The notes: generated by a model not told the origin, from the letters alone. Positions 2,393-24,639 are shown, numbered from the stretch's first letter. The stretch is DNA of 64,000 nt from a virus (IMGVR_UViG_2857349434_000001:1-64000), one strand, 5' to 3'. Made by a program: numbers and translations.

Positions 2393-2404
2393 CTTTCCCT
2401 CGCG

Positions 2405-4216: not shown

Positions 4217-4870
4217 TTAACCGACCTTTTCGAGGTCGTACTTCTCGGCGTAGTGGTCGGCCTTGTCCTTCGGATCGAAGTCCGGGTTGAACCAGATTGC
4301 GAAGAAGTCATCCTTCGCCAGGCCGGCGCCTTCCAGGTCGAGACCGTAGTGGTGGCTGAGGTTCCACTCGAACTGGCGCAGGTACTCGGCCTTTGCCCAG
4401 TCGCTGCCCAGGATCTCGTTGCGGGCCTTCCTCGGGTCCGGGAAGGCTTCTCCCGGCGTCACCGTGTTCACGATTGCCGGAATGATCTCCCAGTCATAGG
4501 CGCCGATCTCGCGGAACCACTCCGGCAGGAGGTCATAGACCTTCAGCACCCACTTGCCGATGTCGATGCTGTAATGGCGCAGCTCGACCGAGCCGACGCC
4601 TATCCGGTACGGGTGCCAGACCGGGTTTGGCTTGTCGGTAGCGACCGTGATCTCGCACAGGTACTCCCAGACGCACAGCGCCGCCTCCATCTCGAGGTGG
4701 CTATAGGCCTCGGGCAGATCCACGGCGATCTCCTGGCGGTAGACGCGAGCGCCGGCCTTGACCAGGTCCTCGGTCTTCGCCCTGGCATCCTTCTCGTCGA
4801 CGGCCAGTTCCCGGACGATGCCCGGCACCTCGTCGTGCTCGCCTTCGATGTAGAAGAGCTCAGCTCTCAT
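4217..4870 (-). CDS. hypothetical protein (217 aa)
   Basis: Start trimmed to Met15; ATGA-coupled to rtcB. Confidence 0.55.
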   Translation of the reverse strand: MRAELFYIEGEHDEVPGIVRELAVDEKDARAKTEDLVKAGARVYRQEIAVDLPEAYSHLEMEAALCVWEYLCEITVATDKPNPVWHPYRIGVGSVELRHYSIDIGKWVLKVYDLLPEWFREIGAYDWEIIPAIVNTVTPGEAFPDPRKARNEILGSDWAKAEYLRQFEWNLSHHYGLDLEGAGLAKDDFFAIWFNPDFDPKDKADHYAEKYDLEKVG

Positions 4871-6246
4871 TTCTTCTTCCTCTGCCAATGCATTTCGCCG
4901 GCCATGATGCAACCGTAGGGGTCGACGTAGTCGACGACCTCGGCCAGCCGGTGCTTATGGATCTGCCGCTGAACCTGCTCGGCGCTTTTGTAGGCGCTGG
5001 GCAGCTCGGACAGGTCCGGGGTGCCCAGGTAGAACCGAGCGTCAAGACCATTGGTCTCGCGCTGCAGGAGCTTGTCCGCGTCGTAGAACATGGTCGCGGT
5101 CTTCATGTACGCCGTCCGGCTCAGGTTCCGGCCGGCGCCGTGGGGCGAGAAGCCCAGGGCTTCGTCCTTGTCGGCGTGCCGGGTGACCATGATCGGCTCG
5201 GCCATGTTCATCGGGATCAGGGTCCGGCCGTCGTCGTCAGGCGAGAAGCCGGCGAAGGATGGTGTGGCGCCCTTGGCGTGGTAGAAGAGGCCGTCGTCGC
5301 GCCGGAACACGAAGTTATGCTCGTTCCAGAACCGATCGACCACGGAGTTGCCGATGCGCTGCTGGATGCGGTCGTGGAGGACGAAGTGGTTCAGCTTCGT
5401 CCACTCGCGGACCAGCTGGAGCGCCTCCCAGTAATCCTGGCCCGCCTCGGTGTCGGCGTCGATCCAGGCGGCCTGGGGGTCGGTCCTGGGCGACACGATC
5501 GCCGTGTGCTTCTTGGCCGCGGCCAGGCCTCGCTTGTAGACGAGCGCGCCGAGGCCACGGGAGCCGTGGTGGGTCACGATCGCCGGCTGGCCGGTCGAGC
5601 GCAGCGTGCCGACGAACAGGAAGTGGTTGCCGTCGCCCTGCGTGCCTAGATTGGTCTCGGCGATGTCACCGTATTTCGTCTGGCGGTCCTGGGTGAAGCG
5701 GTTGTAGTCGAGGTTGGCGCGGAGCGGCATGGGCAAGGCGAAGCCTTGCTTGCGCCCGCCCGGGCCGAAGTGCGTCACCTCCTGGGCGACGTCGAGGATC
5801 TTCTTCAGATCGTCGATGCGCTTGAAGACGGTGATCGCCATCGAGCAGCACACGTCAGCCGAATGGAAACCAGGGTGGATGGCGTTCTTGGTCGCCACCA
5901 CGCCGCCCACCGGGATGATCCCGGCGGGGCAGGCGTCGGGCATGACGACGGCCTTCTCAACGGTCGGCACCCGCACCAGCTTGTCCATGGCCTCGACGAC
6001 CAGGTCGAGGTTCTTCTGCTCGACGTCGTTCTCGGGTTCGAGGAAGACGTTGAACGGGAGGGAGTTGGTACGGAGCGGGATCTCGGGCGGCGCCGGAGGC
6101 AGGAGAGTGCCCACGGTGGCCCGAATGGCATCCTCGTCGCTACCGGACTCCGACATGAGGTTGGCGATCTCGATAGCTTCGCCGAACGACCTTCCTCGGC
6201 CTTTGGGGTCGAAGCCCCAGTCGATCAGCGTCTTGCCGGTGATCAT
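4867..6246 (-). CDS. rtcB: RtcB-family RNA 3'-phosphate ligase
   Basis: Motifs ADVCCSM (cf. DIGCGM), GDGNHF, HHGSRGLG and SPHGAGRN (cf. NHAGAGR); about 459 aa; GAAGGAA RBS. Confidence 0.85.
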   Translation of the reverse strand: MITGKTLIDWGFDPKGRGRSFGEAIEIANLMSESGSDEDAIRATVGTLLPPAPPEIPLRTNSLPFNVFLEPENDVEQKNLDLVVEAMDKLVRVPTVEKAVVMPDACPAGIIPVGGVVATKNAIHPGFHSADVCCSMAITVFKRIDDLKKILDVAQEVTHFGPGGRKQGFALPMPLRANLDYNRFTQDRQTKYGDIAETNLGTQGDGNHFLFVGTLRSTGQPAIVTHHGSRGLGALVYKRGLAAAKKHTAIVSPRTDPQAAWIDADTEAGQDYWEALQLVREWTKLNHFVLHDRIQQRIGNSVVDRFWNEHNFVFRRDDGLFYHAKGATPSFAGFSPDDDGRTLIPMNMAEPIMVTRHADKDEALGFSPHGAGRNLSRTAYMKTATMFYDADKLLQRETNGLDARFYLGTPDLSELPSAYKSAEQVQRQIHKHRLAEVVDYVDPYGCIMAGEMHWQRKKK

Positions 6247-9424: not shown

Positions 9425-9659
9425 GAGGTGGTTTTCTCCAAAGGTGTCTGTTCGAACCAAAAAGGTCGGCGTGCGCCAGGTCGTGTCCTCGGTGGAGGTC
9501 GCGGCGGAGCATCTGCTTCAGTGGGAGAAGCGGGGACCGAAATGGCGGAAGGCAGTTGAAATGTGTTTGGCCGCGATTGAGGGTAAGGTTGAGCCCGACG
9601 ATGTGGGCAAAGCCTTCAAAGCCGCGGCCGAGGAGTCGGGGATGTTGGAAGAGGATTGA
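9423..9659 (+). CDS. hypothetical protein (78 aa) upstream of the DNA ligase
   Basis: GAGGA RBS; stop overlaps the ligase start. Confidence 0.45.
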   Translation: MRWFSPKVSVRTKKVGVRQVVSSVEVAAEHLLQWEKRGPKWRKAVEMCLAAIEGKVEPDDVGKAFKAAAEESGMLEED

Positions 9660-10270
9660 TGCAGACCGAGCGGCTAAAGTTCATCAAGCCCATGAAGCCT
9701 CTGCTCGTGCGGGAGCCGCCAGTGAGCGACGACTGGCTGCACGAGATCAAATATGACGGCTTCCGGGTTCAGCTGATCCTCGACTGGGCCGGCGCTCGTG
9801 CCTTCACGAGGAACGAGCACGACTGGTCGCGGCGGTTCTGGCCGGTGGTCGACGCGGCCGAGAAGCTGAAGGCCAAGTCGTTCATCCTCGACGGCGAGAT
9901 GATCGCCCCTGAGCCTGACGGGCGGCCGAACTTCCTGCAGATGCATTCCCGCATGGCGTGGAATGCCGAACTGCTGGCCTATGTCGCCTTCGACATCCTG
10001 TATCTGGACGGCGAGGATCTTCGCGCCGTGCCCCTGATTGAGCGCAAGGCCAAGCTCTGGCAGCTGGTGAAGCCGGCGACCGGGATCATCCAGTATTCCC
10101 AGCACGTCGAGGGCGGCGGCGCAGATTTCTACGAGGCCGCCCAGCGGATGGGGCTGGAGGGGATCGTCTCGAAGCGTCGGGAGAGCCCCTACAAGAGCGG
10201 GGCGACCGACGCCTGGGTCAAGACGAAGTCGCCGAACTATCTCCGGCGCGAGCGGAAGCGAGCCGCTTAG
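9656..10270 (+). CDS. minimal ATP-dependent DNA ligase (nucleotidyltransferase domain only, 204 aa)
   Basis: Motif I IKYDGFRV (KxDGxR), motif III FILDGEMI, motif IV EGIVSK, motif V WVKTK; no OB domain. Confidence 0.75.
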   Translation: MMQTERLKFIKPMKPLLVREPPVSDDWLHEIKYDGFRVQLILDWAGARAFTRNEHDWSRRFWPVVDAAEKLKAKSFILDGEMIAPEPDGRPNFLQMHSRMAWNAELLAYVAFDILYLDGEDLRAVPLIERKAKLWQLVKPATGIIQYSQHVEGGGADFYEAAQRMGLEGIVSKRRESPYKSGATDAWVKTKSPNYLRRERKRAA

Positions 10271-10403
10271 CGGCCCTGGCGGCTTCCTTGGCGCCGGTCG
10301 CGCCGCGGTAGTCCTTCTTCCCGCCCTTGAGCAGGTTCTTGCCGATGTTCTTGGTCGTGACCGGCTTGCAGCGCTGGTAGAGGTGAGCGGTGTGGGTCAT
10401 CAT
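10218..10403 (-). CDS. small basic hypothetical protein (61 aa)
   Basis: ATGA-coupled to 10400..10732; overlaps the 3' end of the ligase in antisense. Confidence 0.35.
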   Translation of the reverse strand: MMTHTAHLYQRCKPVTTKNIGKNLLKGGKKDYRGATGAKEAARAAKRLASARAGDSSATSS

Positions 10404-10732
10404 GAAATCCTATCGATTGAGTGGTTGCCCCAACCCTTGGCCTCCCAAGGATCGACGCCGGTGTGCTCGCGGATGTAGTCGGCGATCTGCCGCTGGTGGT
10501 TGCTGAGCGCGATGGTGAAGTGAGTTGCCGTGCTGATCGCCGTAGCGATGTGCTGTAGGCCGTTCAGGCCCCACCACATCGAGCAGCACAGGTCGTACAG
10601 CAGGGTCTCGTCGCCGGCCTCGCGCGCCTTCTCGCAGCGGGCGAACATCTTCCCGATGTAGAGGGCGGCAAAGGGCTCGACCTCCTCCGAAATGAAGGGG
10701 ACTGCTTTCTGGATCTCGGCCTTCGTGATCAC
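10400..10732 (-). CDS. hypothetical protein (110 aa)
   Basis: Non-artefact composition. Confidence 0.5.
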   Translation of the reverse strand: MITKAEIQKAVPFISEEVEPFAALYIGKMFARCEKAREAGDETLLYDLCCSMWWGLNGLQHIATAISTATHFTIALSNHQRQIADYIREHTGVDPWEAKGWGNHSIDRIS

Positions 10733-10772: not shown

Positions 10773-10970
10773 ATGCGCATCAGCCCACCCACTATCGAAG
10801 AGTTCGCGTTCCACATCGAGCTGTGGAGCGGCGACAATCTGCGAGTGGATGAGACGCTGGCGGTGGCGCGGAATATCCGCGTGGCGAAGGCCGCCTACGA
10901 GGAGGCGGTGCGGGGGCAGGAGGGCCGCATCGTGAAGCTACGACACGGCGCCCGAGTCATTCTCCCGTAA
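10773..10970 (+). CDS. hypothetical protein (65 aa)
   Basis: Trimmed to Met28; AT-rich upstream sequence. Confidence 0.45.
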   Translation: MRISPPTIEEFAFHIELWSGDNLRVDETLAVARNIRVAKAAYEEAVRGQEGRIVKLRHGARVILP

Positions 10971-11293: not shown

Positions 11294-11740
11294 TCAACTC
11301 TCCAGCTCGGTCTTGGCCGCGGCGTAGTGGAGCGGGAAGGCCCAGTCGTCCGGGAGGCCGGCCCACGAAACCCACATGCATTCGAGCGTCTCGCCCTCCT
11401 GCTTGACGGCGGAGTCATGGTGGATTGGCCCGTCGTAGCGGGCGATCACCAGGTTGTTGCCGTACTCGTCGGTGACGAGCTCTTGGACCTGTTCGATGAG
11501 CTCGGGCAGTTCCAAGACATAGCCCGTCTCCTCGGCCACCTCACGAGCACCGGCCTGCTGCCAGATCTCGCCTCGCATGTGGTAGCCGCCCGGCAGGCCG
11601 AGTTTGCCGGCGCCGGGTTCGTTGGCACGGCGGATCACCAGCAGCGAGCCCGTGTGCCGGACCAGCATGACGACCACGGTCGGGGTGTTGTCGAATAGCG
11701 GGCGCCCGTCCTTGGTGTGGGCGATGGGTTGGTCGGTCAT
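11294..11740 (-). CDS. Nudix hydrolase
   Basis: Canonical Nudix box GGYHMRGEIWQQAGAREVAEETGY (Gx5Ex7REUxEExGU). Confidence 0.85.
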   Translation of the reverse strand: MTDQPIAHTKDGRPLFDNTPTVVVMLVRHTGSLLVIRRANEPGAGKLGLPGGYHMRGEIWQQAGAREVAEETGYVLELPELIEQVQELVTDEYGNNLVIARYDGPIHHDSAVKQEGETLECMWVSWAGLPDDWAFPLHYAAAKTELES

Positions 11741-12834: not shown

Positions 12835-13056
12835 TTACGGCAGCTTGTCCGCAATCCTGTGGAGGTGGTTCGCGAGATCGCGAAGGGTGTTGTGGTCCCG
12901 CGGGAGGATGACCTGGCTACGGCCGGGGGTGTTCAGGTTCTCCAGCACGACGAAATCGTGGACCGACTGGACGCTGACGCCGGTCGCCTTGAAGTGGCCG
13001 TTCTGGCCGAGGCCGGTGGGCGCGGAGCGGGCGGGGAAGGGGATGAGGACGTTCAT
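12835..13056 (-). CDS. hypothetical protein (73 aa)
   Basis: ATG with RBS; coupled. Confidence 0.5.
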   Translation of the reverse strand: MNVLIPFPARSAPTGLGQNGHFKATGVSVQSVHDFVVLENLNTPGRSQVILPRDHNTLRDLANHLHRIADKLP

Positions 13057-13283
13057 GCCATCAGCTCCGTCAGGAAGGCGTAGGCCTCATCGACGAGCGC
13101 CGGCAGATCGTCTCCCACGACACACCACGGGCCGTTCGCGCCGTCACGGGTGGGCAGCTGCCCCTCGTCGAAAGGCTCAACGGCCATGAAAGCGCCGGCG
13201 TGATCCGTGTTGAGGCGTGGGTCGCGGTCGCCGACAGTCCAGCCGTGCGACCGCAGGAAGGATATCTTGTCGGCTGTGGTCAT
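13053..13283 (-). CDS. hypothetical protein (76 aa)
   Basis: ATGA coupling. Confidence 0.5.
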   Translation of the reverse strand: MTTADKISFLRSHGWTVGDRDPRLNTDHAGAFMAVEPFDEGQLPTRDGANGPWCVVGDDLPALVDEAYAFLTELMA

Positions 13284-13558
13284 GCTGCGTTCCTCGTGAC
13301 GTCCAGGACGTAGTCCTGATGCAGGGGCGGGAGCAGCTCGGCCTCGAGCTGCTTGAAGCGGTTGCCGTCGACCTCCTCGGAGCGCCAGATCAGGAACCGG
13401 GCGAACTGGCAGGGCCGGCAGATGATCACCTGCTCGGTGCGCACCGCGTTGTAGGCCTCGGTCAGGGTCAGGCCGAAGGCGCGCTTGGCCGCCCTGGCAT
13501 TGGCGGCGTGGTTCTTGTCGACGTCGCTGAGCTTGAAGCGGACGCGGTCACCGGTCAT
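13280..13558 (-). CDS. hypothetical protein (92 aa)
   Basis: ATGA coupling. Confidence 0.5.
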   Translation of the reverse strand: MTGDRVRFKLSDVDKNHAANARAAKRAFGLTLTEAYNAVRTEQVIICRPCQFARFLIWRSEEVDGNRFKQLEAELLPPLHQDYVLDVTRNAA

Positions 13559-13613
13559 GGCGGGCTCCTGGATGGGATGGGGCCCGGGCGGTGCCCGGGC
13601 CGGGTTGGGTTGG

Positions 13614-14468
13614 CTACTTGTTGGCTTCCATGAACGGCACGGTGCCGTTCGGCAGCACGGTGGTGGGCAAGGTGCCGTTCCAGCGTTCGGCCTTGGTCAG
13701 ATCGATGATGAGCGGGTTGTTGGCCAGAGCCGAGGATCGGGCCTTGATCGCATCCGCTTCGGCATCGCCCTGGACCTTCGTGGCGTAGGCCTTGGCGTCA
13801 GCTTCGGCCTTCACGGAGTCAGCGCGGCCCTTGGCCTGGGCGACGGCGATCTCGGCCTTCACCTTTTCCTGCTCGTAGATCTGCTTCTGCTTCTGGACCT
13901 CGACCTCAGCCGTCATTCGAGCTTCGATGGTGGCCTCGTAGGCATCCGAGAAGTCGATGTTCTTGATCTGCACGGAGTCGACCACGATCGGCCCGATGGT
14001 GCCTTGGATCACCGCGTCGGCGATCTCGCGATTGAGCTCGGCGCGCTTCTGGATGGCGAGGACCGCCGTGTATTTGCCGAAGACCGTCTTCACGCTCTGG
14101 GGCACCGTCTGTTCGATGGTGCGCGAGACCAGCCCGTCCACGCTGCCGTAGTTCTGGTAGACGTTCTCCACCTGGCCGTCCGGGATGTGATAGATCACCG
14201 ACACGGCAAGGTTGGCGGTCTGCTGGTCCGACGAATAGGACGGCAGCGCGCTCTCGCCCTCCCATGTCAGCGCGTTCTGCCGGGTGGTGATCTTCACGAC
14301 CGACTGGAAGAACGGCGTTTTGAAGTGCAAGCCTGGTTCGGAGGTCGCGGTGTAGGCGCCGTTGGTGAGCAGGATACCGCGCTGGCCCTGGTCGACGGTG
14401 TAGAAGGAGGAAAAGCCGAGGATGAGGGCGCCGGCAATGGCGGCGCCCAGGGCAATGAGAGACTTCAT
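13614..14468 (-). CDS. SPFH/band-7 (prohibitin/HflC-like) membrane protein
   Basis: N-terminal TM segment, then YTVDQGQRGILLTNGAY... SPFH core and a coiled-coil EAR/K-rich C-terminus. Confidence 0.8.
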   Translation of the reverse strand: MKSLIALGAAIAGALILGFSSFYTVDQGQRGILLTNGAYTATSEPGLHFKTPFFQSVVKITTRQNALTWEGESALPSYSSDQQTANLAVSVIYHIPDGQVENVYQNYGSVDGLVSRTIEQTVPQSVKTVFGKYTAVLAIQKRAELNREIADAVIQGTIGPIVVDSVQIKNIDFSDAYEATIEARMTAEVEVQKQKQIYEQEKVKAEIAVAQAKGRADSVKAEADAKAYATKVQGDAEADAIKARSSALANNPLIIDLTKAERWNGTLPTTVLPNGTVPFMEANK

Positions 14469-14517
14469 GTAATGGTTGGTCCTTGTTGAGGTTGGAGGTG
14501 GGTAGTTCGGTTTCGGG

Positions 14518-14808
14518 TCAGTCGAACCTGACCGTCACGTCCTTGAGGAGACCCTGGCACACCACACCGGAGACGGGTTTGCCGTCCGCTCCGGTGCCAG
14601 TGAAGGTCGAGGAGAAGTGGTCGTTCTTGCTGCAGGCGAACCAGGCGTAGCCGCCGAACCTCACGTCGTGGATGCCCACGGCGTTGAGGGCACGGGTGGC
14701 AGCGCCATGGTCGGCGTCACAGCCGCCCAGGCCGGCTGTGACGAGGCTAAGGACCACGATGCAGACGCCGGCGATTAGGCCGAGCGCCTCTGGCTTGCCG
14801 TCATTCAT
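14518..14808 (-). CDS. small membrane-anchored or lipoprotein-like protein (96 aa)
   Basis: Trimmed to Met14; LIAGVCIVVLSLVTAGLGGCDADHG gives a hydrophobic segment plus a possible lipobox. Confidence 0.5.
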   Translation of the reverse strand: MNDGKPEALGLIAGVCIVVLSLVTAGLGGCDADHGAATRALNAVGIHDVRFGGYAWFACSKNDHFSSTFTGTGADGKPVSGVVCQGLLKDVTVRFD

Positions 14809-15824
14809 GCTGCCTTCTCCATGGGTTCGTACCCGTCGCAGAACCATTCGGGGACGCGGCTGTCATCCTGCCAGTTGGCGCCGTAGGCCTCGTCGACGTA
14901 TTCCTGGAGGTCAGCGGGATCGACGCCCATGTTTTCCAGCACGTCGGCGATGACGTCTGGGTAGTCCTTGCATAGGTCCAGGAGCGAGCGTCTCCGCATG
15001 TCGTAGGACTTCTTGGCCGCGGTCTTCCACGAGCGGGGCGAATAGTAGCGATCGTCCTCCTCATCGACCTCGGATGGATCTCGCGAGATCGGGAGAGCGG
15101 CCCAGTCAACGTTCAGCAGCTTGTTGCGGAGCTCGATCAGGAACGGGACGTCCTGCTGCTCGCGGGTGGTGTGCTGCCCACGGTAGCCGACCGACACATT
15201 GGTGCATTCCGGGATCAGGTGGGAATACTCGGCCGTGTCGGTGTAGACGCCCCAGGAGGAGGGCTTGAAGCCGCCCAGCTGGTCGCCCAGGGCCTGGGCG
15301 AACTTGTCGGAGCACGTCCGGCCCGGGCTCTGGTGGGTGATGATGTCCTCGTAGTCCTGCCGATCAAAGGCGATCGCCGCCTCGAACTCGCGCAGGAAGT
15401 TCGGACACTCGTCGGCCAGGGCGCGCGACCCGATGCATCCGCTCTCCTCGCCGTGGTGGATGAGGTAGAAGCCTGGGATGTCGGCCTTGATCATTTCGGT
15501 CATGAGCCAGATGCCGGCCGTGTCGTCGGCGCCGAGACAGTTCGAGCCCTCGCGGATCGCCCGCTTGGAGAGCTTGAGGATGCCGTCGCGGTAGTCGAGC
15601 GTCTGGATGCCCTCCTTGCGGTGGACGGTGTCGACATGCGACGAGAACATGATCGTGGAGGGCTTGTCCCCCACGAGCAGGTAGAGGTTCAGTTGCTCGT
15701 CACGTTTGAAGCCCAGGGGCGTCAGGTAGGTGTCGATGAACCTCTGCTCCGTAAGGGAGCCTCGGGGGCGCCGATACTGGAACATTTCGAGGATCATGCG
15801 CTCGTCGGCTGACAGCTTGTTCAT
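14805..15824 (-). CDS. M20/M28/M42-superfamily zinc peptidase-like protein
   Basis: SSHVDTV (HxDTV), GADDTAG (GxxDDxxG) and HHGEESGCIGS (EExG) match the co-catalytic zinc peptidase motifs. Confidence 0.55.
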   Translation of the reverse strand: MNKLSADERMILEMFQYRRPRGSLTEQRFIDTYLTPLGFKRDEQLNLYLLVGDKPSTIMFSSHVDTVHRKEGIQTLDYRDGILKLSKRAIREGSNCLGADDTAGIWLMTEMIKADIPGFYLIHHGEESGCIGSRALADECPNFLREFEAAIAFDRQDYEDIITHQSPGRTCSDKFAQALGDQLGGFKPSSWGVYTDTAEYSHLIPECTNVSVGYRGQHTTREQQDVPFLIELRNKLLNVDWAALPISRDPSEVDEEDDRYYSPRSWKTAAKKSYDMRRRSLLDLCKDYPDVIADVLENMGVDPADLQEYVDEAYGANWQDDSRVPEWFCDGYEPMEKAA

Positions 15825-15845
15825 TGTGATGGTCCTTTTGTTGGC

Positions 15846-17324
15846 TTAGGCTGCGAGCCGATCGGGCGCGGTGGTGGAGGTCTGGGCGATCTCAACGTCC
15901 TCGTCGCGGAGGAAGTCGCGGAGATCCGGGAAGGACTCGGTGCTGATGTAGCGACCGTCGCTCAGGCGGATGCGGCGGGACATGTCGAGGTCCCACTTGT
16001 CCGAGTAAGCACAGTGGAAGCCTTCGCGGCGAGCATAGTGTATTGAGACAGACTCGTCGTCGACCGTCTCAACTATATCCTCGTTGGCGACGTACTCATC
16101 CTCGTATTCACAGTATGTGAAGTGCTCGGATGCATACGACTGGCAGTATTCCTCGTCTCCTACAGTAACGCGATGGTCATTACTGTAGACTTCGCCGGTT
16201 CCGTCACAGCGGAAGTAGTTACGGTCAAAGCAACGATCGCAGATACTGGCGCCGTTCGCAGTGATGTAACCTTCCTCGTCGCTGTCGTAGTCACGGGCGC
16301 AGTCGTCGCATTCCGTGTCTTCGTCGTCGTAGCTCAACCCGTTGGTGTTGCGCAGGTTGACGCTGCCCGAGTAGGACAGAACTAGGTAGGTGCCGTCGTC
16401 CTCCGCCTCGTCGGCCACGTCGCAATAAGGCACAACAAAGCCCCGGCCGTATTCGATGCGCTGGATGCGGGCGCTGTGGAAGTCTGAGGCGTAGCCTTCC
16501 TTGTAGCCGGCGTTGATCAGGGCCGCTTCGAGGCGCGGGCCGTCGCCGTACCATTTGGCGTAGTAGAGCTTGCGCTCGGGCCACACCAGGCACCGCGCGT
16601 CGATGTTGTCGATCGGGCCGATATAGGCGATGCCGAGATCAGGGCCGGCGTAGACGCGGGCCGGGTGGCAGGACCCAGACCAGCCGCCCTGGCCGAAGTG
16701 CATGCAGGAACCCAGATAGGCGCCGCGGTAGATCTGCACGATCTCATCCGCGTCCTGGGTGATGTGGACCTCGCGGACGGCATAGTAGGTCGACCACTCG
16801 AGCGCGGCCTCGTGGATCTCCTCCTCGCTCAGCACATCGGCGAAGAACTTCTTCAGGTATTTGCCGGGCTTGATGGGCGTGCGGATGTCGCGGGCACGCT
16901 TCTCGGGCGTCTGGAAGTAGGCGAGCAGACCCTTGGTGGTTTCGCTCGGCGCCGGGAAGTGCTCGATCCAGCGCATGACGTTGTCGCGGAACCAGCGGTG
17001 CTTGTACCAGGGCAGATCGTCGATGCTGGTGATGTAGCGGTTGCGGAGCTCCGGGTGGTAATCGTGCGGCCGGACGGACAGCATGTGGATATGGCTGTTT
17101 GGCCAGGAGCGCGTGGCGACCTCGGGCTTGAGGTTGGAGGCGTAGTCGTAGACCAGGGACCAGGACTTGTCGGCATGGACGATCAGGGCGATCGCATACA
17201 TGTCGAAGTCGAAGTCCAGGCGCAGACCCTCGGTCTCGACGGTGCGGGTGACCCGCGGCTGAATTTCGGTGATGGCGGGCGCAGGTTCTCGCGGGCGCAC
17301 CACCTCCTTGGTGATCTCGTCCAT
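15846..17324 (-). CDS. large hypothetical protein (493 aa) with an acidic CxxC-rich C-terminal region
   Basis: Trimmed to Met25, because the track N-extension would run through the terminator; TECDDC...CDRC..C..C motifs suggest a zinc ribbon; no family recognised. Confidence 0.55.
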   Translation of the reverse strand: MDEITKEVVRPREPAPAITEIQPRVTRTVETEGLRLDFDFDMYAIALIVHADKSWSLVYDYASNLKPEVATRSWPNSHIHMLSVRPHDYHPELRNRYITSIDDLPWYKHRWFRDNVMRWIEHFPAPSETTKGLLAYFQTPEKRARDIRTPIKPGKYLKKFFADVLSEEEIHEAALEWSTYYAVREVHITQDADEIVQIYRGAYLGSCMHFGQGGWSGSCHPARVYAGPDLGIAYIGPIDNIDARCLVWPERKLYYAKWYGDGPRLEAALINAGYKEGYASDFHSARIQRIEYGRGFVVPYCDVADEAEDDGTYLVLSYSGSVNLRNTNGLSYDDEDTECDDCARDYDSDEEGYITANGASICDRCFDRNYFRCDGTGEVYSNDHRVTVGDEEYCQSYASEHFTYCEYEDEYVANEDIVETVDDESVSIHYARREGFHCAYSDKWDLDMSRRIRLSDGRYISTESFPDLRDFLRDEDVEIAQTSTTAPDRLAA

Positions 17325-17351
17325 TTCGCTCTCCAGTGGTGGGGGTGGGAA

Positions 17352-17395
17352 ACAAAAAGGCCCTCGCCGGTGGGCGAGGGCCTTGGGGTGCTTCA
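17352..17395 (-). terminator. rho-independent terminator (minus strand)
   Basis: Minus-strand transcript AAGGCCCUCGCC-CACC-GGCGAGGGCC followed by UUUUUGUUU. Confidence 0.6.
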
Positions 17396-17690
17396 CTCAC
17401 GCAGAAGCTGCTCGGTCTCCATTCAGGCTGGAGACGACACCCGCGTTTAAGGTCGGCGAAGACCCGCGTCAGCGAGGATTAAGGGCTCACCCAGGGGTGG
17501 CCCTAGCGGTCATAGGAATGACTGGTGGTTCCGGTGCGCCATATGCAGCCCGGATGGGCGAGGGATCAGATGGGGGCGCTATGTCTTGCCCTTAGTGGGC
17601 TCAGATGGTGTGGTGCCTGGGCTTGGTTACAACGTCACGGTCATGGTTGCCTCCTGCGTTGGCTCCAGGGTGGGGAGCTGTGGGATCGAA

Positions 17691-17999
17691 CTAGAGAAGG
17701 GCGATGTGCGCCACGAGGTGCGTGGGCGGCGTGGTGCTGAGGTCGGTGAACCCGCACCAGTATTCGTTGCCGACCCTGACGAAGGTCGCGGCGATGTCGC
17801 CGGTCAGGCGCTCCGACATGCGGAAGCCTCCGGCGCAGTAGCGCGGCGGCAGGAGATCCTCGAACTCACGATAGGTCTCGTGGTCGATCTTCCAGAACTT
17901 GCCGAGCATCGAGGCCGGTGTGGTGCCGGTGCGCTGCCAGAGGTTGAGGTTCCGGTAGTGCTGATCCCGGTCACCCTGGGCGCTAGGTAGCTGTTGCAT
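17691..17999 (-). CDS. hypothetical protein (102 aa)
   Basis: Track ORF; reasonable composition. Confidence 0.5.
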   Translation of the reverse strand: MQQLPSAQGDRDQHYRNLNLWQRTGTTPASMLGKFWKIDHETYREFEDLLPPRYCAGGFRMSERLTGDIAATFVRVGNEYWCGFTDLSTTPPTHLVAHIALL

Positions 18000-18216
18000 T
18001 GGGGCGGTCCCATGTGAGGTCGAAGACGTTGACGAAATATTCGGTCCCCTGATCGGGGTGACCTTCGGGGTGGACGTAGACGCGGTTCCTGCCGTTCTTC
18101 GCCCATCCGGTGACGATGTAGGGCTCGCCGCGGAATGAGATGACCTTGTCGCCTACGCGGACAAGTCGGCCGTCCGGGTGGAAAAGGTGGCGGTTAAGGC
18201 TCTGGGTGCGATCCAT
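17983..18216 (-). CDS. hypothetical protein (77 aa)
   Basis: Trimmed to Met28. Confidence 0.45.
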   Translation of the reverse strand: MDRTQSLNRHLFHPDGRLVRVGDKVISFRGEPYIVTGWAKNGRNRVYVHPEGHPDQGTEYFVNVFDLTWDRPNATAT

Positions 18217-18611
18217 TGATCGAAAGTCCTCTGTGCGTCTTCGTTGGTCATGCGTCCGTCCAGCGTGCGGATGTCGGCCATGAGTGGGGCCAGGCACCAG
18301 TCGCAGTCCTCCTCCAGCAGGAAGAACTCGAAGTCCTCCCGGTTGCAGAGTTGGGCATGCGTCACTTTGAACGAGCGACGGCGATAGGGGTGGTTGACGG
18401 CCTTGCCGTAGTCCTCGGCCTGCTCGGGGTCGACGTAGCGACGGATGCGGGCATACTCATCATGGGCGAGGCAGCGGGCGTCGATGACGAAGCCCCCGTG
18501 CGAGGAGCACGAGAAGTAGAAGGCCCCGTTGCGGTTGGTGCGGGTGGAATGGGTGCCGCCGGTGCCCCAGACGGCTTCCGCGATTGAGCGGGCTTGGGAG
18601 TGGGTGAGCAT
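18153..18611 (-). CDS. hypothetical protein (152 aa)
   Basis: Trimmed to Met36; GGAGAG RBS. Confidence 0.5.
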   Translation of the reverse strand: MLTHSQARSIAEAVWGTGGTHSTRTNRNGAFYFSCSSHGGFVIDARCLAHDEYARIRRYVDPEQAEDYGKAVNHPYRRRSFKVTHAQLCNREDFEFFLLEEDCDWCLAPLMADIRTLDGRMTNEDAQRTFDQWIAPRALTATFSTRTADLSA

Positions 18612-18766
18612 GATGCTCTCCTGAAAGGGGTGGCGGTCGTGCGGGGTGGTAAGGCCCGGGCCCGGGAGGTCAGAGGGCACGACACGACCGCCTGCGCCTC
18701 GCGGTGACCCGGGCAAGGGTCAGGGCGAGAGCGGGTTGCAGTTGCTGTTGCTGTTGCTTGGGTGGA

Positions 18767-19195
18767 CTAGGCGGTGGCGCGGCGCTTCAGGATCTCGGCC
18801 ACGATCTCGGGCCGGTAGAACTCGTTGAGCTCGTCCTCGTCCACGGTCTCCTCGGCCACCAGCATCTGGATTTCTTCCAGCTCACGGTCGTTGAACTGGA
18901 CCAGCGTGGGGTCACGGGGGTCGCGCCATGTCTGCTTGGGGGCGTCGTCGTATTTCAGCTGGCGCTCGATGATCACGCGCCAGTGGGTGGGCTCGATACA
19001 GCGGGGCTCGTAGCAGTCCGGCTTGATTGAAATGTTGTCGTGGCCCACTAAGTCCAGCAGGACTCGGGCCGGGTTGCCGACGTGGTGCATGTGGGGCTTA
19101 CCGCGGTGCATCGGACCATCCCAGATCAGGTGGGCGCCGTCGCGGTGGGAGCATTTAGCCACGCGCTCGTGAGGTGGGGTCTTCGGTCTGGCCAT
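18767..19195 (-). CDS. hypothetical Cys/His-containing protein (142 aa), weakly HNH-like
   Basis: CSHRDGAHLIWDG...H.HH...CYEPRCIEPTHW; first gene downstream of the AT-rich regulatory island. Confidence 0.45.
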   Translation of the reverse strand: MARPKTPPHERVAKCSHRDGAHLIWDGPMHRGKPHMHHVGNPARVLLDLVGHDNISIKPDCYEPRCIEPTHWRVIIERQLKYDDAPKQTWRDPRDPTLVQFNDRELEEIQMLVAEETVDEDELNEFYRPEIVAEILKRRATA

Positions 19196-22194: not shown

Positions 22195-24639
22195 TCACTT
22201 CTTCGAGCCCACAACTGTGACGTAGTTGTAGACGATGTCGGTGCCCCCACTCCGGATCTCGCGCAGCTGTTCGAACCTGAAGGCGCCGGCCAGCTCCTTC
22301 ATCAATGCGTGAAATCTCGTCCGGGGCACACGCATCACACCCCCCGCCATTGCGCAGAAGGCCCAGTATTCGTCGAAAAGGAGATCCCCCGTAGTGCGGG
22401 TCTTGGAAGGAGACAGGCCCTCGTGCTCGCGCACGCCCACCTTGAGACGAGGGCTTTGGGATAAAAAATAACGGACCGAATTGTTCTGGTTCGCCATGTC
22501 GTCGATCACCACCCGGTGGGAGGAGGGCAAGGTGTAGTCCTTGTTCGCCTTCAGCCGAGCCAGGCCCTGGAGCGCCCAGGCGACGATCTGCTCGCGCTCG
22601 GCCGCCAGGATGATCTGGTCGATGTCGATGACCTTCTTCTCGTCCGGGATGCGCCGCGGAAACTCCAGGAACAGCCAGCGACGGTTGAAGCCGTCCGATG
22701 TGTCCTTGGTCTTGGGCGAGTGATTGGACGCGAACCACTGCGCCGCCGTGGGGTGGACGTCGAACGGCGTCTGGTTCTTGTGCTGGACGGTGATCTGCTC
22801 GCCGCAGACGATCTGCTTGAAGATCTCGCCGGCGATCTCTCGCTTCTCCGAGATCTCGCCCGCGAAGTTGACCAGCTTGTCGGCCATCTGCGCCGGCAGG
22901 AACTTGTCGTGCCAGTCGGTCGGAGGGATCGCGGAATAGCTCCCATGGGGCACCAGGCCCTTGAGGATCTCCAGGATGCGGCTCTTGCCGCTGTGTGCTT
23001 GGCCGATCAGGCAGAACGCTCGCTGGAAACGTGGTGCAACTCCCATTAGCGTTACAGCAAGAGCCTCCTGGAGCGCCATCACTTTGTCACCATAGTCCGG
23101 GTCCTCGCCCCAGCAGTCGTCCAGCATCTGCAGGAAGAGCGGGCAGCGGCTGTCCTCCTGGTACCGATAGGGCAGCACGTAGGTGCAGCCATACTCCGGC
23201 GAGTGCGGCTTCAGCACCATGTCCTCGGTCAGGAAGCCGTTGGCGAAGTTCACGCCGATCAGCGCCACGGACTTGAGCTCACCGGCCAGCCGGTTGGCCA
23301 TCAGCTTCACGATCTGGGAGATGTCGGAGTAGCGCCGGCACGCCGGCAGGTTCGAATACTCGTCCGAGATGTGCTTGACGAAGTCGTTCGGGTCGACGAT
23401 CTGCCAGCACGCGCCCTTCCACTGCCAGAACTGGCCCTGGTGGTGCTTCAGCTGGCCGAACTCCTGCATGTCCTTGATCGCGGCCTTGGCGATCTCGGTG
23501 TGGTCGGTGCCGTTGATCTCGCCGGCGCGCAGCTTTTGGAGCTCCTTGCGCAGCGTGCCGACCGTGTAGACGCCCTTGGACGCCGACACGATGAACTTCA
23601 GGATGCGCTCCTCGTCCAGCGACTTGAGCTCGGTGTTGCGCGCGATGCGATCGAGCGCGAACTCGACGGCGCGCGTCCAGCCGGCCGTGTCGGGCGTCAC
23701 ATGGCGCTCGAACTCGACGACCAGGTGGTCGACGATCCGCTCGGCGCCCCATGCCTCGTTCTCCTCGGTGATGACGAGTCCGAGCTTCTCCTTCTCCTCG
23801 GCCGTCAGCCCGTCGTCCCAGCCTTCGGGCAGCGCGCGGCGCTTCTCGCCGGTGACGTCGCGCATCAGGAAGTCGACGACCTTGGTCTGCGCCTTGCCGA
23901 TGTCGACCCCGTCGCCGGCCACCTTCTCGGTGTAGCCCTCGACCCACGCCTTCATCTCGCCCATGGCCTCGACCAGGGTCCGCTCGCCGCGGGTCACGGC
24001 CCGGGCGAGAAGCCCGGCGTTGAAGACGAGCGCGTTGTCGCGCGCGCCGGCCGGCACGAAGGAGGTGATCTTGGTGTTGCCCGACGACGAGAGCTCAAAG
24101 CCCTCGGCCTTCAGGGCTTCCCGTAGGAGCACTTCCACGTTCTTCGGCAGCGCGGGGAGGGCACCGATGACGTCGGTCAGGTCGCAATTGGCCGAATAGG
24201 CCTTGCCCGTGTCCGGGTGGATCGACGGAGGCAGCACGATCTGCGTGCCCTTGGACAGACACTCGAGCAGCATCTGGCCCGCGCCGTCCTTGATGCGGAA
24301 GGTGCGCTCGCCCTCGAACCGGAACGCCAGGACGGCGCCCTTACGACCGACGCGGCGCCACGGAGAGGCCGGCAGGAGCTGTTCGACGATGCGCTGGACC
24401 CTCGGGTCCTCGCTGTCGATGTCGATCGCCACGACGCCGGAGGCCGCGCCCATCGGCAGACCGATGTTGCCGGTGCCCTTGAAGCGCAGCCACTCGTGTT
24501 GCTCGCGCTCGGTCGGCATCCGGTCGGCGAAAACCTGCCAGGCGTCGATCCACGGGTTCTTGAAACCGACCCTCAGAGGGATCGCGGGCTTGCCCAGGGC
24601 CCAATATTTGGGGGCTTCGGAGGCAAAAATACCGGTCAT
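22195..24639 (-). CDS. bifunctional primase-polymerase (Prim-Pol) fused to a D5/P4-alpha-type helicase (814 aa)
   Basis: N-term VAIDIDSED ... GTQIVLPPSIHPDTGKAY (Prim-Pol); central Walker A GQAHSGKS within a D5_N/primase_C-like NTPase region. Confidence 0.8.
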   Translation of the reverse strand: MTGIFASEAPKYWALGKPAIPLRVGFKNPWIDAWQVFADRMPTEREQHEWLRFKGTGNIGLPMGAASGVVAIDIDSEDPRVQRIVEQLLPASPWRRVGRKGAVLAFRFEGERTFRIKDGAGQMLLECLSKGTQIVLPPSIHPDTGKAYSANCDLTDVIGALPALPKNVEVLLREALKAEGFELSSSGNTKITSFVPAGARDNALVFNAGLLARAVTRGERTLVEAMGEMKAWVEGYTEKVAGDGVDIGKAQTKVVDFLMRDVTGEKRRALPEGWDDGLTAEEKEKLGLVITEENEAWGAERIVDHLVVEFERHVTPDTAGWTRAVEFALDRIARNTELKSLDEERILKFIVSASKGVYTVGTLRKELQKLRAGEINGTDHTEIAKAAIKDMQEFGQLKHHQGQFWQWKGACWQIVDPNDFVKHISDEYSNLPACRRYSDISQIVKLMANRLAGELKSVALIGVNFANGFLTEDMVLKPHSPEYGCTYVLPYRYQEDSRCPLFLQMLDDCWGEDPDYGDKVMALQEALAVTLMGVAPRFQRAFCLIGQAHSGKSRILEILKGLVPHGSYSAIPPTDWHDKFLPAQMADKLVNFAGEISEKREIAGEIFKQIVCGEQITVQHKNQTPFDVHPTAAQWFASNHSPKTKDTSDGFNRRWLFLEFPRRIPDEKKVIDIDQIILAAEREQIVAWALQGLARLKANKDYTLPSSHRVVIDDMANQNNSVRYFLSQSPRLKVGVREHEGLSPSKTRTTGDLLFDEYWAFCAMAGGVMRVPRTRFHALMKELAGAFRFEQLREIRSGGTDIVYNYVTVVGSKK

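What the first reader, a model, noticed from the sequence alone, without database searches (positions are those of the whole stretch)
13614..17324. Four-gene operon: large Cys-rich protein, M20/M28-like peptidase-like protein, small lipoprotein-like protein and SPFH/band-7 protein, bounded by a strong terminator
This membrane-associated module (15846..17324, 14805..15824, 14518..14808, 13614..14468) has no phage function I recognise. SPFH proteins normally partner with NfeD-type membrane proteases. Here the partner is a zinc-peptidase-like protein plus a 493-aa protein with an acidic CxxC zinc-ribbon tail. A strong terminator lies just upstream (17352-17395) and a 365-bp non-coding stretch beyond it. 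This is the best candidate in the window for an undescribed accessory, superinfection-exclusion or defence-like system carried as prophage cargo.
Basis: inference. Interest (0 to 1): 0.65.

Follow-up and report, generated by a model that had tools for sequence, protein, structure and literature searches.

The report
Conserved phage early-gene pair plus membrane cargo
The four genes are real but are not one defence system: two form a widespread, uncharacterised cytoplasmic enzyme pair of phage early regions, and the other two are swappable envelope genes that happen to sit next to it.

Summary
All four minus-strand genes, their domain calls and the upstream terminator are confirmed. They are not a conserved four-gene unit.

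A (15846-17324) and B (14805-15824) are an obligate pair. In 119 loci that encode an A relative, B lies immediately downstream on the same strand in 107. The pair includes the core early genes KP34p10/p11 of lytic Klebsiella and Pectobacterium podophages.

C (a T4 gp39.1-like lipoprotein) and D (an SPFH protein) occupy a variable slot. One close relative carries different genes there and another carries none.

PADLOC gives no hit. The unit continues downstream without a terminator. A conserved, structured ~235-nt leader ends in the upstream terminator.

Best reading: a short-lived early takeover or counter-defence enzyme pair, plus independent envelope cargo. The function is inferred, not shown. 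The finding is moderately interesting.

The parts
17340..17584 (-). Conserved, structured ~235-nt non-coding leader that ends in the intrinsic terminator, 25 nt before the A start codon
   Evidence: Roughly 95% identical by eye over the conserved core among four relatives (not computed separately), while the A proteins are only 68-80% identical. RNAalifold gives 5-6 hairpins, and 4 pairs show compensatory changes. MFE is -99.3 kcal/mol with z = -3.26. No Rfam family matches.
17357..17384 (-). Intrinsic-terminator stem (12 bp, 9 G-C pairs, loop of 4) followed by TTTTGTTT
   Evidence: sequence read.
17627..17644 (-). Conserved mini-ORF (M-T-V-T-L-stop here, M-K-L-stop in relatives) behind a strong AGGAGG ribosome-binding site (17650-17655)
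   Evidence: Alignments; sequence.
15846..17324 (-). Gene A: a 492-aa soluble acidic protein and member of a large uncharacterised superfamily (4,721 clusters at 50% identity). It is a distant homologue of KP34p10 (phrog_6980) and PhiM1_09 (phrog_13313).
16320..16766 (-). A core, aa 187-335. Its beta1-alpha1-alpha2-beta2-beta3-beta4-alpha3-beta5-alpha4-beta6-beta7 order matches GNAT topology. Invariant residues are C207, M208, H220, P221, D229, R244, W248, Y259, G260, Y300 and D302.
15891..16319 (-). A tail, aa 336-478. A CxxC...CxxC zinc ribbon (C339/C342/C362/C365) is followed by beta-hairpin repeats that each carry one conserved Cys (C373, C405, C438).
15849..15875 (-). Disordered C-terminal tail of A ending ...DRLAA, an ssrA-like Ala-Ala-COOH signature conserved across the superfamily
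   Evidence: pLDDT below 50 for residues 484-492. 120 of 225 family members end in AA, against 4.8% of neighbouring genes (Fisher p = 5e-16). Remote KpV475, Peat1, Pasto and BDU-MI-1 homologues also end in AA.
14805..15824 (-). Gene B: a 339-aa soluble di-zinc exopeptidase or amidohydrolase of the MH clan, with M28-like single-domain architecture and a small conserved C-terminal helical domain
   Evidence: PHROG 4191 at 5.9e-76. Aligns to PepT 3gb0 over the HxD, GADD, GEESG and GxxH motifs. H63, D65, D100, E126, E127, D154 and H218 are invariant in 101 homologues. 48 of 50 members hit Pfam M28.
14518..14808 (-). Gene C: a 96-aa lipoprotein (lipobox LGGC) homologous to T4 gp39.1 (phrog_902). 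Its start overlaps the B stop codon (ATGA).
13614..14468 (-). Gene D: a 284-aa SPFH/Band-7 protein with one N-terminal membrane segment and an Ala/Glu/Lys-rich C-terminal region. It resembles HflK/HflC but scores below their equivalog cut-offs.

Best explanation
The region is a stretch of the long leftward early transcription unit of a temperate siphophage. The host is probably a Mesorhizobium-type bacterium, judged from the closest homologues. The region holds two unrelated things.

(1) A-B is a tightly linked cytoplasmic two-protein module that phages, and some integrated or plasmid-like elements, express soon after entering a cell.
- A combines a fast-evolving N-terminal domain and a zinc-ribbon/Cys-repeat tail with a conserved GNAT-like core. 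I infer that the variable parts recognise a target. I infer that the core is an acyl- or aminoacyl-transferase-like catalytic or ligand-binding unit that uses the invariant Cys207/His220/Asp229 and the Y-G-D-x-x-R loop.
- B is a catalytically intact di-zinc exopeptidase or amidohydrolase.
- I propose that A and B act together or in sequence on a host protein, peptide or small molecule, to take over the cell or disarm its immunity.
- I also propose that A's conserved Ala-Ala-COOH tail makes it a ClpXP substrate, so the activity is transient ('hit and run'). Alternatively the tail is trimmed by B as a timer.

(2) C (a T4 gp39.1-like lipoprotein) and D (an HflK/C-like SPFH scaffold, most likely facing the periplasm) are independent envelope proteins in a swappable cargo slot downstream of B. 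They probably protect or alter the envelope early in infection, through membrane integrity or superinfection exclusion.

The structured leader and terminator in front of A probably gate expression of the block. It could act as an antitermination- or attenuation-dependent delayed-early checkpoint, or it could be a separate small RNA.

Shown here: gene identities, the linkage statistics, intact B active-site residues, the fold-level resemblance, the AA tail, the variable slot and conservation of the leader.

Inferred: complex formation, the substrate, a counter-defence role, ClpXP dependence, topology and timing.
For: Linkage:
- B follows A on the same strand in 107 of 119 loci. Four of the 11 loci without B are truncated.
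- The pair persists in remote homologues. hhalign of the A profile against KpV475 gp10 gives 98.3% probability (E = 2e-14), and against the Peat1 large ORF 96.2% (E = 2e-9). Each of those ORFs sits directly upstream of its peptidase gene.
- The corresponding KP34p10/p11 and PhiM1_09/_10 are core early genes placed before the primase (PMC4411677, PMC6115819).

Early or entry position:
- In phage Pasto, A-B directly follows ArdA and lies upstream of the phage RNA polymerase gene.
- In BDU-MI-1, A-B is followed by rIIA.
- In sphingomonad genomes the neighbours are ParB-like, DUF7146-Toprim and YAcAr genes. DUF932 and RadC-JAB genes recur among the pooled neighbours of all loci.
- In this window A-B lies between a Prim-Pol/D5 primase and NUDIX, ligase, RtcB and integrase genes, in the same orientation except for the plus-strand ligase.

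Enzymology:
- All di-zinc ligands and the catalytic Glu of B are invariant in 101 homologues.
- Mean identity to A is 0.45-0.53 for the core, against 0.12 for the N-terminal domain and 0.23-0.28 for the tail.

AA tail. Ala-Ala-COO- is the key ClpX determinant of the ssrA tag and of related degrons (PMC7652416).

Independence of C and D:
- The slot between B and the conserved o13280 gene holds C + SPFH here.
- It holds a 50-aa ORF + SPFH + a further 56-aa ORF in L003, a 56-aa ORF + Phage_VG64 in L125, and nothing in L124.
- C homologues occur alone in 1,061 phage records, including T4-like phages.
- D homologues occur in 339 phage records without A-B.

Leader.
Against: - Physical interaction between A and B was not tested.
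- Position next to primase or Toprim genes would fit a replication-linked role equally well.
- Only about half of the sampled superfamily ends in AA, and sphingomonad members end in -GA.
- Ends such as EAA or DAA may be poorer ClpX degrons than LAA.
- A occurs without B in 7 loci that have room for it (for example the Rhizobium plasmid locus L005). B-like peptidases occur without an A-like neighbour in the Thermus and Lactococcus phages examined.
- Only 10 PLSDB plasmids carry A, so the link to conjugative elements is minor.
- Expression timing in this prophage is unknown, and no sigma-70-like promoter was detected in 13000-18800.
Confidence: 0.55

Rival explanations
1. All four genes form one membrane-associated accessory system for defence or superinfection exclusion, carried as prophage cargo. 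The zinc peptidase and the Cys-rich protein replace NfeD as partners of the SPFH protein.
For: The four genes are co-oriented and tightly packed, and B and C overlap by 4 nt. The nearest relative, L003/L004, also has A, B and SPFH in the same order. In Pasto-like phages an SPFH gene lies about 3.3 kb downstream of A-B.
Against: The set of four is found in no other locus. C is absent from all 119 loci, and D lies within 6 kb in only 6. Orthologous phages L124 and L125 keep A-B without C or D. A and B have no membrane segment. PADLOC gives no hit. A-B are core genes of strictly lytic podophages. There is no terminator or promoter isolating the block.
Confidence: 0.05
2. A-B is right as a pair, but it serves the element's own DNA replication or nucleotide metabolism rather than host takeover or counter-defence. 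One example would be processing or loading a primase or helicase.
For: In KP34-like and PhiM1-like phages A-B sits just upstream of the primase, helicase and DNA polymerase genes. In sphingomonad islands it neighbours DUF7146-Toprim primase-like and ParB-like genes. In this window it is in the same leftward unit as the Prim-Pol/D5 primase.
Against: The neighbours are otherwise extremely variable: most neighbour clusters occur in fewer than 5 loci. In Pasto the pair sits beside ArdA and far from the replication genes. The variable N-terminal domain and tail on a conserved core fit better with adaptation to diverse host targets. Neither protein shows a nucleic-acid enzyme signature.
Confidence: 0.13
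3. C and D, independently of A-B, are lysogen-expressed moron-type cargo. They would give the host superinfection exclusion, or would modulate FtsH through an HflK/C-like cage and so influence the lysis-lysogeny decision.
For: C and D lie in a variable slot, as morons typically do. D's best curated matches are HflC and HflK (E about 1e-12). Both proteins carry an N-terminal signal or anchor. SPFH genes are scattered across many unrelated phages.
Against: No promoter or terminator frames C-D, and C is translationally coupled to B. In Pasto the SPFH gene is a pre-RNA-polymerase early gene of an Autographiviridae genome, and gp39.1 sits in an early-gene region of lytic T4. D scores far below the HflK/HflC cut-offs. 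A 2026 phage-genomics paper read here states that the role of phage SPFH genes remains unclear (PMC13239085).
Confidence: 0.2
4. A-B processes the element's own proteins and has no host target. One version is N- or C-terminal maturation. Another is a self-contained timer in which B trims A's Ala-Ala tail.
For: B is an exopeptidase-type enzyme with an intact active site. Its obligate partner carries a conserved, disordered Ala-Ala C-terminus. In the close relatives B itself ends in -AA.
Against: This does not explain why A has a conserved enzyme-like core and rapidly diverging recognition domains. The AA end is missing in about half of the sampled family. No conserved third partner was found in these loci.
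Confidence: 0.1

Closest known systems
KP34p10/KP34p11 and PhiM1_09/PhiM1_10 early-gene pair of Drulisvirus and Phimunavirus podophages (phrog_6980 or phrog_13313 plus phrog_4191)
   Same: The order and strand are the same: a large Cys-rich protein immediately followed by the peptidase. B is a clear member of phrog_4191 (5.9e-76). The A core is homologous by profile comparison (98.3% and 96.2% probability). A ends in Ala-Ala in both. Both pairs lie in an early region.
   Different: The window's A is too divergent for the PHROG profiles (E = 0.007). It has a different N-terminal domain and is 90-160 aa shorter. The host phage is a temperate siphophage rather than a lytic podophage. The third conserved gene of those genera (phrog_4317, downstream of B) was not looked for in this window; here the slot after B holds C and D. 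The function of the reference pair is itself unknown.
MH-clan di-zinc exopeptidases: Pfam M28, M20 and M42, for example peptidase T (PDB 3gb0)
   Same: The HxD, GADD, GEE, D and H metal-ligand and catalytic motifs are all present and invariant. 48 of 50 family members hit Pfam M28.
   Different: The roughly 115-residue lid/dimerisation domain of M20 enzymes is missing. The window protein scores just under the M28 gathering cut-off (19.3 against 21.3 bits). It carries an extra conserved C-terminal helical domain. Substrate and polarity (amino- or carboxy-peptidase, or deacylase) are unknown.
GNAT-fold transferases, including the aminoacyl-tRNA-dependent branch (MprF, FemA, ATE1)
   Different: Z does not exceed 5.0 and sequence identity is 7-12%. 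No Pfam or PDB profile match was found. The canonical Q/R-x-x-G-x-G/A motif is replaced by Y-G-D-x-x-R. An invariant Cys/His pair lies in the alpha1-alpha2 loop. This is a resemblance of fold, not membership.
SPFH scaffolds with protease partners: HflK/HflC-FtsH and stomatin-NfeD
   Same: D has a bona fide Band_7 domain, an N-terminal membrane segment and an Ala/Glu/Lys-rich C-terminal region (coiled-coil character not tested). Its best curated matches are HflC and HflK.
   Different: D scores far below the HflK/HflC equivalog cut-offs. No NfeD domain was found in C. The neighbouring peptidase B is cytoplasmic and is linked to A, not to D. D is a swappable gene.
T4 gp39.1 (phrog_902), a small conserved protein of T-even and many other phages
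   Same: 43% identity over 61 residues (E = 5e-17), with both Cys conserved. The RB69-like and window versions carry a lipobox.
   Different: The function of gp39.1 is unknown. In other phages it stands alone, with no link to a peptidase or an SPFH protein.
ssrA-type ClpX degrons ending in Ala-Ala-COOH
   Same: A has a disordered C-terminal tail ending in LAA, as does the ssrA tag. The feature is strongly enriched across the A superfamily.
   Different: The tail is genetically encoded, not added by tmRNA. Many members end in EAA, VAA or DAA, and about half do not end in AA. ClpXP dependence is untested.

Membership tests
SPFH / Band 7 (PF01145), for D | SPFH domain above the Pfam gathering score | tested here: met
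   112.8 bits against a 23.6 cut-off, E = 2.4e-32, residues 24-201.
SPFH / Band 7, for D | N-terminal membrane anchor | tested here: met
   Maximum Kyte-Doolittle 19-residue window of 2.13 at residues 4-22.
HflK/HflC FtsH modulators, for D | Score above the NCBIfam equivalog cut-off | tested here: not met
   HflC 47.9 bits against 134.4. HflK 46.3 bits against 159.4.
Stomatin-NfeD operon, for C + D | An NfeD-domain membrane partner encoded next to the SPFH gene | tested here: not met
   C has no Pfam hit at E <= 0.1 and is instead a T4 gp39.1 homologue. The upstream partner differs in every SPFH-bearing relative.
MH-clan di-zinc peptidase (M28/M20), for B | Five metal ligands plus the catalytic Glu and Asp in the canonical order | tested here: met
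   H63, D65, D100, E126, E127, D154 and H218 align to the PepT motifs. They are invariant in 101 homologues.
Pfam Peptidase_M28, for B | Score above the gathering cut-off | tested here: inconclusive
   The window protein scores 19.3 bits against 21.3. 48 of 50 family members match, with a best E of 3e-9.
M20 subfamily (PepT, ArgE, DapE), for B | Inserted lid/dimerisation domain between the fourth and fifth metal ligands | tested here: not met
   B residues 139-201 span what is residues 154-330 in 3gb0, so about 115 residues are absent.
KP34p10/p11-type early pair, for A + B | B belongs to phrog_4191 | tested here: met
   E = 5.9e-76 over residues 7-273.
KP34p10/p11-type early pair, for A + B | A is homologous to the large protein upstream of the peptidase (phrog_6980 / phrog_13313) | tested here: met
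   hhalign gives 98.3% (E = 2e-14) and 96.2% (E = 2e-9). Foldseek matches KpV48, Nobby and CB5 proteins. Plain hmmscan gives only E = 0.0069.
KP34p10/p11-type early pair, for A + B | A immediately upstream of B on the same strand | tested here: met
   21-nt gap in the window. 107 of 119 loci show the same arrangement.
GNAT superfamily, for the A core | Canonical beta1-alpha1-alpha2-beta2-beta3-beta4-alpha3-beta5-alpha4-beta6 topology | tested here: met
   DSSP element order of residues 187-297 in two AF2 models.
GNAT superfamily, for the A core | A significant structural or profile match, and the Q/R-x-x-G-x-G/A cofactor motif | tested here: not met
Known anti-phage defence systems (PADLOC-DB 2.0) | Any component matching a defence-protein model | tested here: not met
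   0 families for all four proteins at E <= 0.1.
T4 gp39.1 / phrog_902, for C | Sequence homology, with a signal or lipobox | tested here: met
   phrog_902 at 2e-19. BLASTP to T4 gp39.1 at 5e-17. Lipobox LGGC after a hydrophobic segment with KD 2.54.
ClpX C-motif-1 (ssrA-like) degron, for the A tail | An accessible C-terminus ending in Ala-Ala-COOH | tested here: met
   A ends ...DRLAA, and pLDDT is below 50 for residues 484-492. The enrichment is about 9-fold by odds ratio (31% against 4.8%), p = 5e-16.
ClpX C-motif-1 (ssrA-like) degron, for the A tail | ClpXP-dependent turnover | not testable with these tools
   This needs half-life measurements in wild-type and clpX or clpP hosts, with an AA-to-DD control.

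The most novel reading that the evidence does not exclude
A-B is an undescribed two-enzyme system of mobile elements. A would be a GNAT/Fem-like transferase with interchangeable target-recognition domains, working with a di-zinc exopeptidase. Together they would remodel the termini or side chains of host proteins, or destroy a peptide-based immune signal, immediately after DNA entry. A built-in Ala-Ala ClpXP degron would then switch the activity off. On this reading it is a new class of counter-defence or host-takeover machinery, present in thousands of phage lineages including therapeutic Klebsiella phages.
Probability: 0.25. Interest if true: 0.75.

Novelty: new member of a known kind. Interest (0 to 1): 0.45.

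Why it matters
The useful result is a different one.

A-B belongs to a very large pair of gene families. The A superfamily alone has about 4,700 clusters at 50% identity. The pair is fixed in the early region of many phages, including KP34-like Klebsiella phages that have been isolated and characterised with phage therapy in mind. It also occurs in some integrated elements. A has no Pfam family, and the related PHROG families are labelled 'unknown function'.

The analysis gives concrete handles for experiments:
- obligate adjacency of the two genes;
- an intact di-zinc active site in B;
- a GNAT-like core in A with invariant Cys, His and Asp;
- variable recognition domains in A;
- a conserved ClpX-type Ala-Ala tail on A.

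If the pair proves to be a counter-defence or takeover enzyme system, it would assign a function to hundreds of phage genes now labelled only 'putative peptidase' or 'hypothetical protein'. The swappable slot holding the SPFH and gp39.1-like genes, and the conserved structured leader, are smaller but testable leads on phage envelope cargo and early-operon control.

Tried and rejected
- Megablast of 13000-18000 against the phage and plasmid collections gave no match.
- PADLOC gave no hit for any of the four proteins.
- Pfam, NCBIfam and a PDB sequence-profile search gave nothing significant for A.
- Rfam found nothing, either on the whole window at gathering thresholds or on the leader at E <= 1.
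- Exact-pattern scans for the leader in viral and metagenome contigs gave 0 hits. nhmmer found it only in the four close relatives.
- The afdb50 fold library was unavailable.
- I followed a lead that B's C-terminal domain is Clp_N-like (Pfam E = 0.077; a ClpC1 chain in the PDB search, E = 0.2). Only 4 of 50 homologues hit Clp_N, with a best E of 0.019, so I dropped it as unsupported.
- The idea that C is the conserved partner of the SPFH protein was rejected. The gene upstream of the SPFH gene differs in every relative.
- The idea that A-B is mainly a conjugative-plasmid module was weakened. Only 10 PLSDB plasmids carry A.
- Literature searches on phage SPFH function, KP34 peptidase function and the PHROG identifiers gave no functional data. 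The Iyer et al. 2009 amidoligase paper was not held.

Full report
**1. Observation**

Each has strong homologues, so none is a chance ORF.
- D hits Pfam Band_7 at 2.4e-32 and phrog_200 at 7e-57.
- B hits phrog_4191 'peptidase' at 5.9e-76, with a weak Pfam M28 hit.
- C hits phrog_902 at 2e-19.
- A has no family hit, but 146 database homologues up to 80% identical.

The ATG at 17324 is supported by an identical N-terminus in the closest homologue and by a GGAGAG ribosome-binding site. The longer GTG ORF would cross the terminator. The terminator is real: a 12-bp stem with 9 G-C pairs at 17357-17384 followed by TTTTGTTT.

Three corrections are needed. First, the terminator lies upstream of A. After D there is only a hairpin with no T-run, and the next co-oriented gene starts 55 nt later. 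The four genes are therefore part of a longer unit. Second, A and B are soluble acidic proteins without any hydrophobic segment; only C and D have one. Third, the 366-bp gap includes the terminator.

**2. Setting**

The window is a temperate siphophage-like genome. It has an integrase at 111-1322, a leftward early block and a rightward block of large late-type ORFs starting near 25206 (not scanned against families). The early block holds a Prim-Pol/D5 primase (22195-24639), DUF7007-like and DUF1419 genes, then A-D, a NUDIX gene, a plus-strand ATP-dependent ligase, RtcB and DUF7227. There is no near-identical DNA in the phage or plasmid collections. The closest relatives are Mesorhizobium-derived contigs.

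**3. Linkage**

I fetched loci encoding A relatives from IMG/VR (80 loci), GTDB genomes (32 loci) and individual look-ups. I then searched their six-frame ORFs with profiles of A, B, C and D.
- Of 119 loci with A, 108 contain B, and in 107 B lies immediately downstream on the same strand.
- Four of the 11 exceptions are truncated contigs.
- D lies within 6 kb in six loci: the nearest relative (L003/L004), three Pasto-like phages where it sits about 3.3 kb away beyond a MarR-type regulator and an integrase, and L086.
- C lies in none.

Among the closest orthologous phages, the interval between B and the conserved next gene (o13280) is a variable slot:
- C + SPFH in this window;
- a 50-aa ORF + SPFH (95% identical) + a further 56-aa ORF in L003;
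- a 56-aa ORF + Phage_VG64 in L125;
- nothing in L124.

So A-B is the conserved unit, and C and D are independent cargo.

**4. Reach of the pair**

tblastn finds B-like peptidases in 401 phage records, mostly Klebsiella, Pectobacterium and Vibrio Autographiviridae. In KpV475 and Peat1 the gene directly upstream of the peptidase is a large hypothetical protein. Profile comparison shows these are distant homologues of A, at 98.3% (E = 2e-14) and 96.2% (E = 2e-9) probability, sharing the SCM...HP.R.Y...YG core and the CxxC tail. They define phrog_6980 and phrog_13313, both labelled 'unknown function'.

Published comparative genomics lists the corresponding genes, KP34p10/p11 and PhiM1_09/_10, as core genes in the early region before the primase (PMC4411677, PMC6115819). 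Foldseek of the A model against BFVD recovers the same uncharacterised proteins from Klebsiella, Shigella, Vibrio, Pectobacterium, Pseudomonas and Caulobacter phages. A profile search of 1.84 billion representatives gives 4,721 clusters at E <= 1e-3.

The positions are consistent with early expression.
- In the Bradyrhizobium podophage Pasto the pair follows ArdA directly and precedes the phage RNA polymerase gene.
- In BDU-MI-1 it is followed by rIIA.
- In sphingomonad genomes it sits among ParB-like, DUF7146-Toprim and YAcAr genes. DUF932 and RadC-JAB genes recur among the pooled neighbours of all loci, though their source loci are not resolved.

Only 10 PLSDB plasmids carry A. More distant B-like peptidases in Thermus and Lactococcus phages have no A-like neighbour.

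**5. Anatomy of A**

AlphaFold2 with a 62-sequence alignment gives a confident model (pLDDT 89; core-only model 94.5). The model divides into five parts:
- a beta-rich N-terminal domain (aa 17-95);
- a helical segment (96-186);
- an alpha/beta core (187-335);
- a CxxC...CxxC ribbon followed by hairpin repeats that each carry one conserved Cys (336-478);
- a disordered tail.

Mean identity to A is 0.12 for the N-terminal domain, 0.45-0.53 for the helical segment and core, and 0.23-0.28 for the Cys-rich tail. This is a conserved engine with fast-evolving flanks.

The invariant residues are C207, M208, H220, P221, D229, R244, W248, Y259, G260, Y300 and D302.

**6. The Ala-Ala tail**

A ends in ...DRLAA. 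The same ending is common across the family:
- 46 of 62 aligned homologues end in AA;
- 120 of 225 fetched family members do so (EAA 43, LAA 40, VAA 19);
- 35 of 113 non-identical locus ORFs do so;
- only 4.8% of neighbouring genes do so (Fisher p = 5e-16).

The remote KpV475 (...EEAA), Peat1 (...QDAA), Pasto (...AEAA) and BDU-MI-1 (...RAAA) proteins also end in AA. The terminal Ala-Ala-COO- is the main ClpX determinant of the ssrA tag and of related natural degrons (PMC7652416).

The simplest reading is that A is built to be short-lived. Alternatively the tail is a substrate or ligand of its exopeptidase partner. B ends in -AA in the window and its two nearest relatives, but only weakly so across the family (12 of 99, p = 0.008).

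**7. Anatomy of B**

B aligns to peptidase T over the SHxDTV, GADD, GEESG and GxxH motifs. H63, D65, D100, E126, E127, D154 and H218 are invariant in 101 non-identical homologues. 48 of 50 members hit Pfam M28. The M20 lid domain is absent, because B has about 62 residues where PepT has about 176. B is therefore a catalytically intact, single-domain di-zinc exopeptidase or amidohydrolase. It also has a small conserved C-terminal helical domain (V..YP...A..LE..G). A weak Clp_N similarity did not hold up (4 of 50 members).

**8. C and D**

C has a lipobox (LGGC) and is a homologue of T4 gp39.1 (43% identity, E = 5e-17). The RB69-like version also has a lipobox. Homologues occur alone in 1,061 phage records.

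D is a genuine SPFH protein with an N-terminal anchor. Its best curated matches are HflC and HflK, but far below their cut-offs. Homologues are scattered over 339 phage records, including jumbo, N4-like, P1 and haloarchaeal viruses. A 2026 phage-genomics paper read here states that the reason for SPFH genes in phage genomes remains unclear (PMC13239085).

No NfeD domain was found in C, and no neighbouring gene was identified as one. The gene upstream of the SPFH gene differs in every relative.

**9. Leader**

The ~235 nt before A (17340-17584) are roughly 95% identical by eye across four relatives whose A proteins are only 68-80% identical. They fold into 5-6 hairpins with four compensatory pairs and z = -3.26, and they end in the terminator. 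Upstream lies a conserved 3-5-codon mini-ORF behind AGGAGG. There is no Rfam match and no further copies in the collections searched. The element could be a small-RNA gene or an attenuation or antitermination checkpoint for the A-D block.

**10. Mechanism and rivals**

Best-supported explanation (0.55): A-B is an early, transient, cytoplasmic enzyme pair that acts on a host target for takeover or counter-defence. A would be the recognition and transferase-like subunit, B the exopeptidase, and ClpXP the off-switch. C and D are independent envelope cargo. The linkage, the active site, the fold resemblance, the tail and the variable slot are shown here. The substrate, complex formation, timing and counter-defence role are inferred.

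Rivals:
- a single four-gene defence system (0.05), contradicted by the linkage census, the absence of membrane segments in A and B, PADLOC and presence in lytic phages;
- a replication-linked role for A-B (0.13);
- C/D as lysogen-expressed exclusion or FtsH-modulating cargo (0.20), which is compatible with the main model for A-B;
- a self-processing or timer-only role (0.10).

**11. Novelty and score**

All four genes fall into catalogued phage protein families of unknown function, or are remotely related to such families. The window adds a divergent member in a temperate rhizobial phage, so I rate it a new member of a known but functionally uncharacterised kind. Interest is moderate (0.45). 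The claimed system is not real. The A-B pair, with its conserved degron-like tail, intact peptidase and GNAT-like core, is a well-defined candidate for an undescribed early phage function.

Noticed in passing
window 17340-17584 (-), with mini-ORF 17627-17644 (-) and ribosome-binding site 17650-17655: A ~235-nt non-coding element ending in the terminator is more conserved than the flanking genes. It is structured (z = -3.26, four compensatory pairs) and has no Rfam match. Upstream lies a conserved 3-5-codon mini-ORF with a strong ribosome-binding site. It could be a small RNA or an attenuator/antitermination leader.
   Followed up: partly
window 13582-13600 (-): Directly after the D stop codon sits a perfect hairpin, GCCCGGGC-acc-GCCCGGGC, in which each arm is itself palindromic. 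It has no T-run, so it is not an intrinsic terminator. It could be an RNA-stability or processing element between D and the next gene.
   Followed up: no
window 4867-6246 (-), 9656-10270 (+), 11294-11740 (-), 1652-2407 (-): The same early region carries RtcB (an RNA ligase), a short ATP-dependent DNA/RNA-ligase-like protein on the opposite strand, a NUDIX hydrolase and a DUF7227 protein. This looks like an RNA-repair and nucleotide-hydrolysis set of the kind associated with countering host nucleases or signalling nucleotides. Similar ligase and RNA_pol_A_CTD-like genes also occur near an A homologue on a Rhizobium plasmid (L005).
   Followed up: partly
window 62359-62985 (-) and 59109-61520 (-): A protein with the N-terminal domain of dATP/dGTP diphosphohydrolases (PF18909; MazZ/DatZ-type from memory) lies near an 803-aa protein that matches only the insertion domain of B12-dependent (class II) ribonucleotide reductases. 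This hints at manipulation of the nucleotide pool. I did not look for a PurZ-like gene.
   Followed up: no
window 17691-17999 (-) and 18153-18716 (-): The genes just upstream of the leader match DUF1419 (at its gathering cut-off) and, below cut-off, DUF7007. From memory, both families are typical of rhizobial plasmids and integrative elements. This fits an accessory-gene pool shared between phages and other mobile elements.
   Followed up: no
L007:6712-7173 and L008:4903-5337: In KP34-like and PhiM1-like phages a third conserved gene (phrog_4317, about 150 aa, unknown function) directly follows the peptidase. It was not looked for in the window or its relatives, so the reference module may have three genes in those genera.
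   Followed up: partly
L001:6781-6984, L012 about 10813-10935, L013 about 10354-10461: In Pasto-like phages the SPFH gene is preceded by a tiny single-pass membrane protein (35-67 aa) with a similar C-terminal KKG-x-N motif. It could be a phage-specific SPFH partner that is absent from the window.
   Followed up: partly
window 14805-15824 (-), C-terminus; L003 and L125 B genes: B also ends in Ala-Ala in the window (...EKAA) and in two close relatives (...DLAA). Across the family only 12 of 99 B proteins do so. In this clade both partners may therefore be ClpX-labile.
   Followed up: partly
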